7,424 nt of DNA from a virus (lineage: Duplodnaviria; Heunggongvirae; Uroviricota; Caudoviricetes): the IMG/VR virus record IMGVR_UViG_3300028985_000011; one strand, given 5' to 3'. Shown in pieces: positions 1,320-4,439 of this stretch (position 1 is its first letter; every line of letters starts with the position of its first letter). Below the pieces are notes generated by a model, which was not told where the DNA came from, searched no databases, and saw only the letters and a list, made by a program, of their open reading frames with translations. The position numbers were made by a program, and so were the translations under genes.

Positions 1320-1373
1320 NNNNNNNNNNNNNNNNNNNNNNNNNNNNNNNNNNNNNNNNNNNNNNNNNNNNNN
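1320..1373. other. Run of 54 undetermined bases (assembly gap or masked sequence)
   Basis: n characters from 1320 to 1373; flanking minus-strand ORFs are in different frames, so gene structure across it is unresolved. Confidence 1.
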
Positions 1374-2177: not shown

Positions 2178-2405
2178 ATGTTTAAATCAGACGTAATTAA
2201 TTTTTATGGGACGAAAGCCAAAGTAGCGAAAGCTGCTGGTGTTGATCCATCTGCTGTTTCTCAATGGGGGGAACTGGTTCCTGAAGGTCGCGCGATGCGC
2301 CTGCAAGAGGCATCCGGCGGGGAACTTCAGTACGACCCCAAAGTTTATGACGAATATCGTAAGGCAAAGCGGGCGGGGCGGTTGAACAATGAAAATCACC
2401 CCTGA
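2178..2405 (+). CDS. dicC: DicC/Cro-like small DNA-binding regulator, 76 aa
   Basis: ATG at 2178 preceded by GGAGGGG (2169-2175); product MFKSDVINFYGTKAKVAKAAGVDPSAVSQW...; same length as E. coli DicC and divergent from the dicA-like gene; the upstream extension to 2127 in the track lacks an RBS and overlaps the promoter. Confidence 0.8.
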   Translation: MFKSDVINFYGTKAKVAKAAGVDPSAVSQWGELVPEGRAMRLQEASGGELQYDPKVYDEYRKAKRAGRLNNENHP

Positions 2406-2940
2406 ACAGGTTTGTGAGGCTCTGGATGCCTGGGTATGTCGACCAGGAATGACACAGGAGCAAGCGACGATATTAATCACGGAAGCATTCTGGGCTCTGA
2501 AAGAACGCCCGAACATCGATGTTCAACGCGTCACGTTTAATGATGGCGAGGTTGATCAACGGGCGCTGGGCGTTAACCGGGTGAAGATATTCGAACGCTG
2601 GAAAGCTATCGACACCAGGGATAAGCGGAAAAAATTCACGGCGCTGATTCCGGCAATTATGGAGGCTATCCGAATTAGTGATTTCAGGTTGTATCGTGAG
2701 ATCAGTGATGGAAAAAGCATTACGTACATGATCGCCGGATTAAACAAAGAATATGGCGATGTGGTGGAGTCCGGGCTGCTTTTTGCGGATCCAGCTGTTG
2801 TGGAACGTGAGACTGACGAGCTTATAGAAAAAGCTATTGCTTTCAAGCATGCGTATCGTCAGCAATATCAATATTACTTTGCAGATAAACAAATGTCTGC
2901 CAGGGGTTTGTATGAGTATCGATGCACTACGATGGGCTAA
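2389..2940 (+). CDS. YdaT-like protein (CII-position regulator/toxin family), 183 aa
   Basis: ORF MKITPEQVCEALDAW...; third gene of the rightward operon as in Rac-type racR-ydaS-ydaT arrangements; start overlaps dicC-like stop by 17 nt; family assignment from memory only. Confidence 0.7.
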   Translation: MKITPEQVCEALDAWVCRPGMTQEQATILITEAFWALKERPNIDVQRVTFNDGEVDQRALGVNRVKIFERWKAIDTRDKRKKFTALIPAIMEAIRISDFRLYREISDGKSITYMIAGLNKEYGDVVESGLLFADPAVVERETDELIEKAIAFKHAYRQQYQYYFADKQMSARGLYEYRCTTMG

Positions 2941-3952
2941 AAAGGTGAAAACCGGCAGTTCATCCAGTAAGTCTGTATTGACCTGGCTTGCTGATATGTG
3001 CGGTGCCGATTTGTGTGCATACCCGTCTGTATCTGCACTGGCAGAAGTAACGGAACTAAACAAAAAGACTGTGCAGGACAGCTTACGACACCTGATGGAG
3101 ATTGGGTTAATTGTTGATACCGGTGAGAGAAAAGGCAGAACAAAGCAAATTGTGGTGTACCGACTTATCGGTGTAGAAGAAAGTGTTGCCGAGCCTGAAT
3201 ACACCCAAAAACGGGAGTCTTTAAAGGTGGGTAAAATTGGTGCTGTTAATAAAAACAGTACCGAAAATGGTTATGTTTCAGCACAAAACAGACCCAAAAA
3301 CGGAACTCTTAGCTGCATGGAAAATAACCAAAGACACCCAAATTTTCCATCAAAGACACCCAAAAACGGATCACGGAACCCAAAGGAACCCAAAGATCTA
3401 AACCCCACACATAACGCACGCGAGAGTGCTCCGACCAGTGAGCAGGAAGTTTTGTCGTTACAGGCAGCACCCCTTGTATTCCTGGATGGCCTGAGCGAAC
3501 CCATCGGAAAATTTCCGATGACCGATAGCTGGTATCCGTCACGGGATTTTCGACGACGGGCTGCGTTGTGGGGGATGGCTTTGCCGGAGACAGAATTTAC
3601 ACCTGCTGAACTTGCCGCCTTCCGGGACTACTGGGCAGCGGAGGGGAAAGTGTTTACTCAGATTCAGTGGGAGCAGAAATTCGCCCGTCACGTAAATCAC
3701 GTCAGGGCGCAGGTTAAACCAGTCAGCAAGGGGGTAAACCATGCAGCAGCACCAGGTGGCACCGCATCACGGGCAGTTCAGGAAATTCGGGCAGCACGTG
3801 AGCAGTGGGAACGTGAAAACGGATTTATCAGCGACGGAAACGGTCTGGAAGCTGTGGGAACTCATGGGGGAGGTTTATTCGAACCGCTGGACCCAGAAGA
3901 ACGGGGCCGCACCTTCGAAGCTCTGGATTGCACAGATTGGCGCGATGACTGA
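2912..3952 (+). CDS. Replication initiation protein (lambda-O-position): N-terminal HTH DNA-binding domain, low-complexity linker, C-terminal DnaT-like domain
   Basis: ATG at 2912 with AGGGG 5 nt upstream (track start at 2837 is TTG without RBS); N-terminal LTWLADMCGADLCAYPSVSALAEVTELNKKTVQDSLRHLMEIGLI resembles replication-initiator HTH; C-terminal WYPSRDFRRRAALWGMALPE...FRDYWAAEG resembles DnaT-type domain; iteron-like repeats inside. Confidence 0.8.
   Translation: MSIDALRWAKKVKTGSSSSKSVLTWLADMCGADLCAYPSVSALAEVTELNKKTVQDSLRHLMEIGLIVDTGERKGRTKQIVVYRLIGVEESVAEPEYTQKRESLKVGKIGAVNKNSTENGYVSAQNRPKNGTLSCMENNQRHPNFPSKTPKNGSRNPKEPKDLNPTHNARESAPTSEQEVLSLQAAPLVFLDGLSEPIGKFPMTDSWYPSRDFRRRAALWGMALPETEFTPAELAAFRDYWAAEGKVFTQIQWEQKFARHVNHVRAQVKPVSKGVNHAAAPGGTASRAVQEIRAAREQWERENGFISDGNGLEAVGTHGGGLFEPLDPEERGRTFEALDCTDWRDD
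3290..3396. repeat. Iteron-like repeat array inside the initiator gene (candidate replication origin)
   Basis: Core CCCAAA five times (3293, 3337, 3359, 3379, 3389); 12-mer CCCAAAAACGGA at 3293-3304 and 3359-3370; 14-mer CAAAGACACCCAAA at 3329-3342 and 3351-3364 (22 bp apart); tandem GAACCCAAAG at 3376-3385 and 3386-3395; AT-rich tract 3240-3290 just upstream. Confidence 0.5.
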
Positions 3953-4406
3953 GCAGCAAATCCGACAGGTCTGCCGCCAGTGCATGGACCGCTGCCGGGC
4001 GGGTGAAACATGGCCTCCGGACCTGGCTGAGTTTGTGGCGCTGATTTCAGAAAGCGGGGCCAATCCATTTGGCCTGACGGTGGATGCTGTGATGGAGGAG
4101 TACCGCCGCTGGCGTGATGAGTCCTGGCGATATGACGGAAGCGACAAATATCCGTGGCCTCAGCCTGTGCTGTACCACATCTGCCTCGAAATGCGTACCA
4201 GAGGGATTGAGCGCCAGATGACGCAGGGTGAGTTAAAACGACTTGCGGAACGGCAACTGACGAAATGGGCAAAGCATGTTGGTAACGGGATGAGTGTTCC
4301 GCCAGTGCGACGACAACTGGAAGGGGCGAAACACCCGCAAGGGCCAACGCCAATTGAACGGCTGAAACAGGAATACGAACGCCGGAAGGCAGCTGGTTTT
4401 ATTTGA
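3741..4406 (+). CDS. Lambda-P-like replication protein (helicase loader), 221 aa
   Basis: Strong RBS AAGGGGG (3728-3734) 6 nt before ATG 3741; internal regions MTEQQIRQV, WPPDLAEFVALI, YPWPQPVLYHICLEM align by eye with lambda P; overlaps the 3' end of the initiator gene by 212 nt in another frame (alternative starts GTG 3813 or ATG 3864). Confidence 0.7.
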   Translation: MQQHQVAPHHGQFRKFGQHVSSGNVKTDLSATETVWKLWELMGEVYSNRWTQKNGAAPSKLWIAQIGAMTEQQIRQVCRQCMDRCRAGETWPPDLAEFVALISESGANPFGLTVDAVMEEYRRWRDESWRYDGSDKYPWPQPVLYHICLEMRTRGIERQMTQGELKRLAERQLTKWAKHVGNGMSVPPVRRQLEGAKHPQGPTPIERLKQEYERRKAAGFI

Positions 4407-4439
4407 ATCTGAGAAACGATTTTGTCGGAGGAAATTTTA

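What the first reader, a model, noticed from the sequence alone, without database searches (positions are those of the whole stretch)
3741..3952. 212-nt two-frame overlap between the initiator and P-like genes
The P-like ORF has a strong RBS and ATG at 3741, and its N-terminus is needed for full-length alignment to lambda P, yet the initiator ORF stays open to 3952 in another frame. Either about 70 codons are truly dual-coding, or one of the two is shorter than it appears (P-like starting at 3813 or 3864, or a sequence error extending the initiator).
Basis: seen in the sequence. Interest (0 to 1): 0.45.

Follow-up and report, generated by a model that had tools for sequence, protein, structure and literature searches.

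The report
Conserved dual-coding initiator/helicase-loader gene overlap
In this E. coli prophage, about 70 codons of DNA are read in two frames, as the tail of the replication initiator and as the start of the lambda-P-like helicase loader; relatives in about 15 bacterial genera keep the same arrangement, and standard annotation hides it by truncating the loader.

Summary
The initiator ORF (2912-3952) and the P-like ORF (3741-4406) overlap by 212 nt, with P in the +1 frame.

Comparative evidence supports true dual coding and rejects every "one gene is shorter" alternative.
- In 34 homologous loci (14 clusters at 75% nt identity, about 15 genera), the initiator frame always runs 149-221 nt into the P frame. 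About 3 stops per locus would be expected by chance.
- The ATG aligned with 3741 is present in 33 of those 34 loci, preceded by a GGAG-type Shine-Dalgarno sequence.
- P residues W36-E40, upstream of the alternative starts at 3864 and 3945, are under clear P-frame selection.

Constraint is split between the frames. In 3741-3845 variation follows the initiator frame, which encodes a conserved helix, while P encodes a disordered N-terminal segment. In 3846-3952 variation follows the P frame (domain II helices), while the initiator encodes an acidic, disordered tail. That tail is selected for composition, not sequence.

The tail-plus-P unit sits behind initiators with unrelated origin-binding domains. 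I infer that the overlap keeps a loader-recruiting tail linked to its own loader.

RefSeq annotation in E. coli starts P at 3945 (153 aa), removing about 68 residues. I found no published description. This is a new, well-supported example of a known kind of gene arrangement.

The parts
2912..3952 (+). Replication initiator gene (346 aa): N-terminal HTH_36 domain, iteron-bearing linker, DnaT-like domain, C-terminal tail. Stop codon TGA at 3950-3952.
   Evidence: ORF. Pfam HTH_36 and DnaT domain (61.5 bits). PHROG replication-initiation families. Same coordinates in the RefSeq annotation.
3198..3394 (.). Iteron-like direct repeats (three copies of ACCCAAAAACGG plus shorter ACCCAAA copies) inside the initiator gene. 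Probable phage origin of replication.
   Evidence: the repeat finder families D1-D3. That these are origin iterons is an inference by analogy with the lambda ori iterons inside gene O (annotation).
3512..3712 (+). DnaT-like domain of the initiator (aa 201-267). This is the last confidently folded part of the initiator before the overlap.
   Evidence: Pfam PF17948 hit at aa 201-267. AF2 pLDDT 81-93 over the first 70 residues of the modelled fragment, initiator aa 195-264.
3728..3735 (+). Shine-Dalgarno sequence of the P gene (AAGGGGGT), embedded in the initiator's disordered linker.
   Evidence: Sequence. Duplex energy -11.8 kcal/mol here; mean -9.6 across homologues against a background of -2.9. 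GGAG/GAGG/GGGG lies 6-10 nt upstream of the ATG in the homologues, while the initiator amino acids at that spot vary.
3741..4406 (+). Lambda-P-family helicase loader gene, full form (221 aa). Domain I is a disordered N-terminal segment (aa 1-27); domains II, III and IV follow.
   Evidence: ORF. Pfam Phage_lambda_P. Homologues of 212-223 aa at 48-70% identity cover the whole ORF. AF2 model. Foldseek top hits are lambda P in the DnaB complex 9oa1. Lambda P domain boundaries from PMC12661323.
3741..3845 (+). Overlap, 5' half. The initiator frame dominates and encodes a linker plus a conserved helix (aa 286-302, RAVQEIRAAREQWEREN). The P frame encodes the variable, disordered residues 1-35.
   Evidence: Variable sites by initiator codon position are 6/1/11 of 35 each. 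Amino-acid identity in mid-divergence pairs is 0.48 (initiator frame), 0.39 (P frame) and 0.34 (control frame). P wobble positions are more conserved than downstream: 0.87 vs 0.68, p=4e-8. AF2 results.
3846..3952 (+). Overlap, 3' half. The P frame dominates and encodes domain II helices (WxLWExMGEIYSNRWxxKNGxxPSxLWIAQIG). The initiator frame encodes an acidic, Gly/Pro-rich, disordered tail (...EPLDPEERGRTFEALDCTDWRDD).
   Evidence: Variable sites by P codon position are 1/3/11 of about 35 each. Amino-acid identity is 0.71 (P frame), 0.47 (initiator frame) and 0.49 (control frame). The initiator frame is nevertheless open in 34/34 loci; the joint chance over 14 lineages is about 1e-9 for this half. 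Its composition is selected: acidic z=+2.1 with 34/34 loci positive, and basic residues depleted in 34/34. AF2 pLDDT is below 50.
3864..3866 (+). ATG for M42. Rejected as the sole start.
   Evidence: ATG in 34/34 loci but weak Shine-Dalgarno pairing (-5.3 kcal/mol). P-frame selection on residues 36-40 upstream of it.
3945..3947 (+). ATG for M69, the P start used by RefSeq/PGAP in E. coli (153 aa, ATGACTGA overlapping the initiator stop). Rejected.
   Evidence: Annotation. The codon is ATG in only 24/34 homologues and its Shine-Dalgarno pairing is at background level. Starting here would remove conserved residues 36-68 and three predicted helices.

Best explanation
This is a genuine, old, selectively maintained same-strand overlap in the +1 frame between a lambdoid prophage's replication initiator gene and its lambda-P-family helicase-loader gene.

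**What happens (shown or strongly supported).**
- P is translated from its own strong Shine-Dalgarno sequence and ATG at 3741, both embedded in the initiator ORF.
- The initiator keeps being translated for another 70 codons and stops at 3950-3952, inside the part of P that encodes domain II.
- The two proteins split the constraint. In 3741-3845 the initiator's helix is the constrained product, and P places its disordered N-terminal segment there. In 3846-3952 P's domain II helices are the constrained product, and the initiator places an acidic disordered tail there. That tail is kept open and kept acidic through the choice of P's wobble bases.

**Why it exists (inferred, not shown).**
- The tail is the part of the initiator that recruits this particular loader, or the loader-DnaB complex. 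This parallels lambda, where the C-terminal part of O works with P.
- Encoding the tail inside the 5' end of the loader gene makes tail and loader one unit that recombination cannot split. That unit can then be placed behind initiators with different origin-binding domains.
- P's N-terminal region is probably the older reading frame, because lambda P has the same four-domain layout with no overlap. The initiator tail is probably the younger, overprinted frame.
For: **Both frames are kept open.**
- In 34 homologous loci the initiator frame ends 149-221 nt inside the P ORF, always in the same frame relation. These loci form 14 clusters at 75% nt identity in the overlap and 9 at 70%. They come from Escherichia, Salmonella, Citrobacter, Enterobacter, Klebsiella, Pluralibacter, Phytobacter, Kluyvera, Pectobacterium, Serratia, Erwinia, Rouxiella, Samsonia, Limnobaculum and Buttiauxella.
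- Given each P protein, the expected number of initiator-frame stops is about 3 per locus and P(open) is about 0.04. None is observed in 34/34 loci, while the third frame carries 0-6 stops, close to expectation.
- The joint log10 probability over 14 lineage representatives is -10.2 for the 5' half and -9.4 for the 3' half.

**The P start at 3741 is conserved.**
- An ATG aligned with 3741 is present in 33/34 loci, with GGAG/GAGG/GGGG 6-10 nt upstream.
- Shine-Dalgarno pairing energy averages -9.6 against a background of -2.9. At residues 25, 42, 69 and 82 it is -2.8, -5.3, -3.8 and -2.5.
- The initiator amino acids across these signals vary (GG, RG, GE, EV, RD; N/H/Y then A/V/E) while the nucleotides of the signals stay fixed.

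**P is translated upstream of 3864.**
- W39 is TGG in 34/34 loci, while the overlapping initiator codon is NTG with all four first bases.
- L38 uses six different Leu codons.

**Variation among 52 distinct close relatives.**
- Variable sites at codon positions 1/2/3 are 17/13/40 in initiator-only sequence and 19/14/79 in P-only sequence.
- In 3741-3845 they are 6/1/11 counted in the initiator frame. In 3846-3949 they are 1/3/11 counted in the P frame.
- Overall variability drops to 0.17 and 0.14, against 0.28 and 0.25 outside the overlap.
- Fisher tests give p=0.002 for all sites and p=0.006 for the wobble positions of the dominant frame.
- The only indels inside the overlap are two 3-nt deletions.

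**Extra synonymous constraint in P.** At identical-amino-acid codons, wobble identity is 0.87 (aa 1-35) and 0.77 (aa 36-68) against 0.68 downstream, with p=4e-8 and p=0.005.

**Tail composition.** Compared with synonymous-shuffled P, the tail has more D/E in 34/34 loci (mean z +2.1), fewer K/R in 34/34 loci, and more G/P.

**Structure.**
- The P model has residues 1-27 disordered, with helices at 25-46, 48-54 and 60-67 at pLDDT 77-87. Its best PDB matches are lambda P chains in the DnaB complex.
- Lambda P has a disordered domain I (1-29) and a compact domain II (about 30-119) (PMC12661323). Deleting lambda P residues 9-86 abolishes function (PMC3640518).
- The initiator tail is predicted as one helix followed by disorder.

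**Cassette behaviour.** The same tail and P follow initiators with Phage_rep_O, DUF1376, HTH_36 or unassigned N-terminal domains, with or without a DnaT domain. E. coli relatives share only the part from about window 3392 onward.
Against: - No protein-level or ribosome-profiling evidence was available. All support is comparative or predicted.
- P residues 1-35 show no purifying selection on their amino-acid sequence. The P frame being open across 3741-3845 is close to what chance gives (joint p about 0.03). Use of the 3741 start therefore rests on conserved start signals, on selection at residues 36-40, and on analogy with lambda P domain I.
- In 3846-3949 the initiator tail is no more conserved in sequence than the untranslated third frame (0.47 vs 0.49). 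Its function, if any, is compositional or a short motif.
- The codon-shuffling null uses pooled codon usage and ignores context biases. The loci are related by descent and by mosaic exchange, so joint probabilities are approximate.
- A few P homologues lack an overlapping initiator (the Erwinia loci L029 and L036). One locus (Leclercia, L035) carries a 1-nt frame swap at the G-run.
- The proposed tail-loader interaction and the linkage rationale are untested.
Confidence: 0.8

Rival explanations
1. P starts at ATG 3864 (M42), matching the 180-181 aa P products that databases list for Salmonella, Citrobacter and Klebsiella. The overlap is then only 89 nt, and the upstream ATG and Shine-Dalgarno sequence at 3728-3743 are not used for P.
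For: M42 is ATG in 34/34 loci, with pairing somewhat above background (-5.3 kcal/mol). P residues 1-35 are variable, predicted disordered, and show no amino-acid-level selection. The P frame being open in 3741-3845 is not statistically informative. Database entries of 180-181 aa exist.
Against: P-frame selection is evident at residues 36-40, upstream of M42: W39 is TGG in 34/34 while the initiator codon is NTG, and L38 uses six synonymous codons. The ATG aligned with 3741 is kept in 33/34 loci with a much stronger Shine-Dalgarno sequence, while the initiator amino acids over it vary. Lambda P also begins with a disordered domain I. Even under this rival, 89 nt would still be dual-coding.
Confidence: 0.06
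2. P starts at ATG 3945 (M69), as RefSeq/PGAP annotates it in E. coli. The genes overlap by only 8 nt (ATGACTGA) in a classic translational-coupling arrangement, and the upstream P-frame ORF is accidental.
For: This is the consistent RefSeq annotation in E. coli. ATGA-type junctions are the norm in this operon and in lambda O/P.
Against: Residues 36-68 are among the best conserved in the family: M42, R49, W50, K53, N54, G55, P58 and W62 are invariant or at least 90% conserved. They form confident helices. M69 is ATG in only 24/34 homologues and has no Shine-Dalgarno sequence. Variation in 3846-3949 follows the P frame. Lambda P lacking residues 9-86 is non-functional.
Confidence: 0.02
3. The initiator really ends near 3740, and its apparent extension to 3952 comes from a sequencing or assembly indel, or from a recent mutation in this strain.
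For: Nothing beyond the general rule (my background knowledge; no paper retrieved, one search failed) that long overlaps in bacterial annotation are often errors. One relative (L035) does carry a homopolymer indel in this region.
Against: The region is 100% identical in a complete E. coli genome, and 907 genomes carry a match covering at least 80% of it. The initiator frame is open to a stop at about the same P residue (50-74) in all 34 diverged loci. PHROG profiles of full-length initiators match through residue 345-346.
Confidence: 0.01
4. Both frames are translated, but the initiator's last 35-70 residues have no function as a peptide. What is selected is ribosome traffic through the 5' end of P, for example to tune P initiation or keep the mRNA unfolded, or a fixed termination site.
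For: In 3846-3949 the tail's sequence is no better conserved than the third frame. It is predicted disordered. The stop falls within a fairly narrow window of P residues (one search lists the overlap ends).
Against: Tail composition is shifted the same way in all 34 loci: acidic up, basic down, Gly/Pro up. Ribosome traffic alone would not require that. The 5' half of the tail carries a conserved helix motif and follows initiator-frame variation. No stable RNA structure needs unfolding at the P ribosome-binding site (z=+0.84). Unrelated initiators all join the tail in the correct frame.
Confidence: 0.11

Closest known systems
Bacteriophage lambda O and P genes
   Same: The gene order and roles match: an origin-binding initiator with iterons inside its own gene, followed by the P-family DnaB loader. 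The P model here matches lambda P chains in the DnaB complex and has the same four-domain layout. By established knowledge, and from the use of the O C-terminal domain (156-299) with the DnaB-P complex in PMC12661323, the C-terminal part of O works with P.
   Different: Lambda O and P overlap by only 4 nt (ATGA). Lambda O has a different C-terminal domain, with no DnaT-like domain and no 70-residue tail. Sequence identity of P to lambda P is 25% over residues 86-193 only.
Lambda O' read-through product (Yates et al. 1977, as cited in PMC3640518)
   Same: It is a longer form of the initiator whose extra C-terminal residues are read from the 5' part of the P gene in the initiator's frame.
   Different: In lambda it needs suppression of the UGA stop, is a minor product, and adds about 35 residues with no similarity to the tail here. 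Here the extension is the normal, only product and is conserved.
Classic out-of-frame overlapping genes of phages (phiX174 A/B/K and D/E, MS2 lysis gene, lambda Rz/Rz1); from my background knowledge, not tested here
   Same: One DNA stretch is read in two frames on the same strand. One frame is typically constrained while the other encodes a disordered or compositionally biased product.
   Different: Those cases involve lysis or scaffolding functions and are usually nested genes. Here two replication proteins that act together share the junction, and the dominant frame switches midway.
DopC/DopE of Cellvibrionales and Oceanospirillales (PMC5509034)
   Same: The same protein pair: an HTH_36 protein with a DnaT C-terminal motif, next to a lambda-P-family protein.
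   Different: They are domesticated chromosomal genes. The paper does not mention any overlap (zero occurrences of the word), and I did not examine those loci.
Rac-type prophage ydaU/ydaV module, as annotated in phage Rac-SA53
   Same: The C-terminal 188 residues of the initiator are 87% identical, tail included, and the P gene is 91% identical at the protein level. The overlap is the same 212 nt.
   Different: The initiator's N-terminal half differs (mosaic). The record annotates P as the truncated 153-aa form.

Membership tests
Lambda P family of DnaB helicase loaders (Pfam PF06992) | Significant match to the family profile | tested here: met
   PF06992 at 59.3 bits against a cut-off of 26, residues 55-188. 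PHROG 109, 'P-like helicase loader', at E=2e-63, residues 19-221.
Lambda P family of DnaB helicase loaders (Pfam PF06992) | Four-domain architecture: disordered N-terminal segment, two helical domains, C-terminal helix | tested here: met
   In the AF2 model, residues 1-27 are disordered, helices span 25-181, and a C-terminal helix lies at 204-217. The top Foldseek hits are lambda P chains of 9oa1, probability 1.0, with 207-223 aligned columns. Domain definitions are from PMC12661323.
Lambda P family of DnaB helicase loaders (Pfam PF06992) | Binds and loads host DnaB | not testable with these tools
   Needs biochemistry.
Same-strand out-of-frame dual-coding gene pair | Both reading frames stay open across diverged homologues beyond chance | tested here: met
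   The initiator frame has 0 stops in 34/34 loci against about 3 expected. Joint log10 p is about -10 (5' half) and -9 (3' half) over 14 lineages. The P frame is open in 34/34, but this is informative only for the 3' half.
Same-strand out-of-frame dual-coding gene pair | Conserved translation start signals for the downstream gene inside the upstream ORF | tested here: met
   ATG in 33/34 loci with a Shine-Dalgarno sequence averaging -9.6 kcal/mol, against a background of -2.9.
Same-strand out-of-frame dual-coding gene pair | Purifying selection detectable in each frame, and reduced synonymous variation | tested here: met
   The codon-position pattern of variation follows the initiator frame in 3741-3845 and the P frame in 3846-3949. 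Overall variability is about halved. P wobble positions are more conserved than downstream. Tail composition is selected. Selection is partitioned rather than equal along the whole overlap.
Same-strand out-of-frame dual-coding gene pair | Both products detected as proteins | not testable with these tools
   No proteomic or ribosome-profiling data were accessible.
Short-overlap translational coupling (ATGA/ATGnnTGA junction) | The downstream start codon sits at the upstream stop and is conserved | tested here: not met
   The ATGACTGA at 3945-3952 exists, but M69 is ATG in only 24/34 homologues, has background-level Shine-Dalgarno pairing, and lies downstream of conserved P residues.
Programmed ribosomal frameshift producing a fusion protein (e.g. 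lambda G/GT, IS911 OrfAB) | Slippery heptamer in the overlap in the correct frame | tested here: not met
   No X_XXY_YYZ heptamer occurs in either frame within 3741-3952. Going from the initiator frame to the P frame would need a +1 shift, and I did not look for +1 signals. Fusion-like database proteins (PHROG 15931; P0119, P0103) look like indel artefacts.

The most novel reading that the evidence does not exclude
The 212-nt overlap may be an 'interface cassette'. One stretch of DNA would encode, in two frames, the two surfaces that contact each other: the initiator's helix plus acidic tail, and the loader's N-terminal segment plus first domain II helices. Partner specificity would then be inherited as one indivisible unit that can be plugged behind any origin-binding domain. 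That would be a mechanism for keeping co-adapted protein interfaces together in highly mosaic phage genomes.
Probability: 0.3. Interest if true: 0.7.

Novelty: new member of a known kind. Interest (0 to 1): 0.5.

Why it matters
**Annotation.** Conserved out-of-frame overlaps of about 70 codons are, to my knowledge, rare in bacterial and temperate-phage genomes and are usually dismissed as annotation errors. This one is real. It occurs in prophages of over a thousand complete E. coli genomes, including Stx-phage-related elements. It is systematically hidden by automatic annotation, which removes 41-68 N-terminal residues from the helicase loader, including its first domain.

**Experiments.** Anyone expressing, modelling or classifying these loaders from database entries would be working with a truncated protein.

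**Biology.** The locus is a clean natural example of two cooperating replication proteins sharing DNA, with the dominant reading frame switching midway. It suggests a testable idea: the overlap locks the initiator's loader-recruiting tail to its loader during modular phage recombination.

Tried and rejected
- **Direct BLASTP to lambda P.** The 221-aa ORF aligned only over residues 86-193. A profile search of PDB sequences likewise aligned only profile positions 70-188 to lambda P 83-202. Sequence alone therefore does not show homology of the N-terminal 68 residues to lambda P.
- **8v9s.** I hoped this 74-residue structure was a lambda P N-terminal domain. It is domain III.
- **RNA structure at the P ribosome-binding site.** None beyond shuffles (z=+0.84).
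- **Viral-contig scan.** It returned only relatives at 93-100% identity and added no diversity. I reused it for the polymorphism analysis.
- **Second protein search, initiator C-terminus.** It returned mostly partial or frameshifted entries. I cleaned them before modelling.
- **P-frame openness in 3741-3845.** As a test it proved uninformative.
- **-1 slippery heptamers.** None found.
- **NCBIfam.** No model hits the P protein, and the initiator hits primosomal DnaT well below cut-off.
- **Lambda's O-frame extension into P.** It has no similarity to the tail here.
- **Literature.** Three searches found no description of this overlap. One search failed on term length.
- **C-terminal 'TDW' motif.** The tail ends ...LDCTDWRDD and lambda O ends ...LTNTDWIYGVDL. 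I considered this as evidence of homology and set it aside. The W in the tail is largely forced by P's Ile66-Gly67 (ATT GGN) and is replaced by R or F in many relatives.
Full report
**1. What the window is**

The window is the immunity and replication region of a lambdoid E. coli prophage. It is 100% identical to E. coli AR_0013 over 2900-4410. About 1,250 of 5,426 complete E. coli genomes carry a match at 80-100% identity. It is about 96% identical to PPompW and Stx2a-converting phage records.

The gene order is:
- a DicA-like repressor on the minus strand;
- Cro/DicC;
- a YdaT-like protein;
- an initiator at 2912-3952, with HTH_36 and DnaT-like domains;
- a lambda-P-family protein;
- genes for DUF1627, DUF977 and DUF4406 proteins.

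**2.

The initiator ORF ends at 3952 and the P-family ORF begins at ATG 3741. They share 212 nt, with P in the +1 frame relative to the initiator. A strong Shine-Dalgarno sequence (AAGGGGGT, 3728-3735) precedes the ATG.

In this single sequence the coincidence is only mildly unlikely. With the P protein fixed and codons shuffled synonymously, the initiator frame stays open 5% of the time. In the reverse test the P frame stays open 38% of the time.

Public annotation avoids the overlap:
- RefSeq in E. coli starts P at ATG 3945, giving 153 aa and an 8-nt overlap.
- A DDBJ phage record starts it later still.
- Database entries for other genera begin at the Met equivalent to 3864, giving 180-181 aa.
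- Other records give the full 221-223 aa.

**3. The overlap is conserved far beyond E. coli**

A protein search found P homologues of 212-223 aa, at 48-70% identity, that cover the whole 221-aa ORF. A scan of one genome per species returned 38 loci.

I analysed 34 loci in all, including additional E. coli and phage variants. They form 14 clusters at 75% nt identity in the overlap and 9 at 70%. In every one, an upstream initiator ORF in the same relative frame ends 149-221 nt inside the P ORF.

- Given each P protein, about three initiator-frame stops are expected per locus. None occurs in any locus. The unused third frame carries 0-6 stops, close to expectation.
- Over 14 lineage representatives the joint probability is about 1e-10 for 3741-3845 and about 1e-9 for 3846-3952.

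This excludes a sequencing error or a strain-specific extension.

**4. Where P starts**

The ATG aligned with 3741 is present in 33 of 34 loci, with GGAG, GAGG or GGGG 6-10 nt upstream.

| P residue (window position) | Mean pairing energy with the 16S 3' end (kcal/mol) | Codon conservation |
|---|---|---|
| 1 (3741) | -9.6 | ATG in 33/34 |
| 25 (3813) | -2.8 | GTG in 8/34 |
| 42 (3864) | -5.3 | ATG in 34/34 |
| 69 (3945) | -3.8 | ATG in 24/34 |
| 82 (3984) | -2.5 | ATG in 23/34 |
| Background | -2.9 | n/a |

In the initiator frame, the residues lying over these signals change between lineages (GG, RG, GE, EV, RD, then N/H/Y followed by A/V/E). The nucleotides of the Shine-Dalgarno sequence and the ATG stay fixed. 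The constraint is therefore on the start signals, not on the initiator protein.

Independently, P residues 36-40 are under P-frame selection:
- W39 is TGG in 34/34 loci, while the overlapping initiator codon is NTG with all four first bases (V17, M8, L9).
- L38 is kept while using six different Leu codons.

P must therefore be translated from upstream of 3846. That removes 3864, 3945 and 3984 as sole starts and leaves 3741 as the only conserved candidate.

One honest limit: P residues 1-35 themselves show no amino-acid-level selection. The P frame being open there is not statistically informative.

**5. Constraint is split between the frames**

Variable sites among 52 distinct close relatives (at least 85% identical):

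| Region | Frame used for counting | Variable sites at codon positions 1/2/3 | Sites per position | Fraction of sites variable |
|---|---|---|---|---|
| Initiator only (3494-3740) | initiator | 17/13/40 | about 82 | 0.28 |
| Overlap 5' half (3741-3845) | initiator | 6/1/11 | 35 | 0.17 |
| Overlap 3' half (3846-3949) | P | 1/3/11 | about 35 | 0.14 |
| P only (3953-4403) | P | 19/14/79 | about 150 | 0.25 |

Fisher tests give p=0.002 for all sites and p=0.006 for the wobble positions of the dominant frame. The only indels inside the overlap are two 3-nt deletions.

Amino-acid identity in mid-divergence pairs agrees:
- 5' half: initiator frame 0.48, P frame 0.39, third frame 0.34.
- 3' half: P frame 0.71, initiator frame 0.47, third frame 0.49.

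P's synonymous sites are more conserved inside the overlap than downstream. Wobble identity is 0.87 for aa 1-35 and 0.77 for aa 36-68, against 0.68 downstream (p=4e-8 and p=0.005).

The initiator tail in the 3' half is not conserved in sequence, but it is not free either. Compared with synonymous shuffles of P that keep the frame open, it has:
- more Asp/Glu in 34/34 loci (mean z +2.1);
- fewer Lys/Arg in 34/34 loci;
- more Gly/Pro.

**6. Structure**

*P.* An AlphaFold model of the 221-aa P, built from a 46-sequence alignment, has residues 1-27 disordered. Helices at 25-46, 48-54 and 60-67 have pLDDT 77-87. Its best PDB matches are lambda P chains in the DnaB complex. Lambda P is described as a disordered N-terminal 'lasso' (domain I, 1-29), compact domains II (about 30-119) and III (about 120-192), and a C-terminal lasso (PMC12661323). 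Deleting lambda P residues 9-86 abolishes its function (PMC3640518). The 153-aa RefSeq form would lack domain I and about 40% of domain II.

*Initiator.* The model of the initiator's C-terminus shows:
- a confident DnaT-like domain;
- a disordered linker that contains P's start signals;
- one helix at aa 286-302, with pLDDT about 55;
- a disordered tail.

Each protein thus places a disordered or tolerant segment opposite the other's constrained segment.

**7. The tail and P travel together**

The same tail and P follow initiators whose upstream parts carry Phage_rep_O, DUF1376, HTH_36 or no recognisable domain, with or without a DnaT-like domain. E. coli relatives with a different N-terminal half share only the part from about window 3392 onward. 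That point lies just after the iteron-like repeats at 3198-3394.

P relatives of the lambda type differ. Their initiators end ...NTDWI(D/N)GVFDE and overlap P only briefly (17 nt in L039), and lambda O/P overlap by 4 nt.

A few P homologues have no overlapping initiator (the Erwinia loci L029 and L036). One locus (Leclercia, L035) has a 1-nt frame swap at the G-run ATGGGGG.

**8. Interpretation**

- **Shown:** both frames are maintained, the start signals are conserved, selection is frame-specific, and the tail-plus-P unit is combined with different initiators.
- **Inferred:** the tail is the loader-recruiting end of the initiator, in parallel with the C-terminal part of lambda O working with P. 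Encoding it inside the loader gene keeps the two partners genetically inseparable while origin-binding domains are swapped.
- **Also inferred:** because lambda P has the same N-terminal architecture without an overlap, the P frame is probably the older one and the tail the overprinted one.

An alternative I cannot exclude is that the tail peptide itself is unimportant and that selection acts on ribosome passage or on the stop position. I put this at about 0.1. The uniform compositional bias, the conserved helix and the absence of RNA structure at the ribosome-binding site argue against it.

**9. Comparison with what is known**

The proteins belong to known families. Out-of-frame overlaps are a known phage phenomenon. 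Lambda even has a minor read-through form of O that ends inside P, though it is unrelated in sequence. I found no description of this conserved initiator/loader overlap in three literature searches. The DopC/DopE paper describes the same domain pair and does not mention any overlap.

I class this as a new member of a known kind. The practical consequence is a widespread mis-annotated start.

Noticed in passing
window 3198-3394: Iteron-like direct repeats lie inside the initiator gene, between the HTH domain and the DnaT-like domain: three copies of ACCCAAAAACGG in 24-nt units, plus about six shorter ACCCAAA copies. This is probably the prophage's replication origin. The point where E. coli relatives with different N-terminal domains start to match (about 3392-3420) lies just after them.
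   Followed up: partly
window 1320-1373: A run of 54 N (masked or unknown bases) interrupts an ORF on the minus strand (1261-1608). It appears as a run of X in the translations.
   Followed up: no
window 3864-3873; L035 about 3140-3190: The G-run in ATGGGGGAGG sits in the middle of the overlap. In Leclercia adecarboxylata NCTC13032 a 1-nt indel at this spot swaps the two frames. Database 'fusion' proteins (PHROG 15931; P0119, P0103 and P0084) also join initiator and P sequence. These look like homopolymer errors or mutations, not programmed frameshifting, but this was not tested.
   Followed up: partly
window 3741 / 3864 / 3945 / 3984: Public records use at least four different starts for the same P gene, giving 221-223, 180-181, 153 and 140 aa. 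RefSeq is consistent within E. coli at the truncated 153-aa form. No NCBIfam model hits this protein.
   Followed up: yes
window 3917-3949: The initiator's last residues (...LDCTDWRDD) resemble the C-terminal ends of lambda O (...LTNTDWIYGVDL) and of lambda-type initiators in L039 and L040 (...NNTDWIDGVFDENSF). This could be a shared short acidic/aromatic motif or a coincidence. The Trp is partly forced by P's Ile66-Gly67 codons.
   Followed up: partly
window 2389-2405 and 2912-2940: Other genes of the operon also overlap, but only briefly: Cro/YdaT-like by 17 nt and YdaT-like/initiator by 29 nt. Further downstream there is a 4-nt ATGA-type junction. The 212-nt overlap is the outlier.
   Followed up: no
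window 3747-3754: Close relatives carry two separate 3-nt deletions in the Gln/His-rich start of P (MQQHQV...). Both preserve both reading frames.
   Followed up: partly
L029, L036 (Erwinia spp.): These P-family genes have a shortened N-terminus and no overlapping initiator upstream. In L036 the upstream gene looks like a host PTS component. They may be prophage remnants or domesticated loaders.
   Followed up: no
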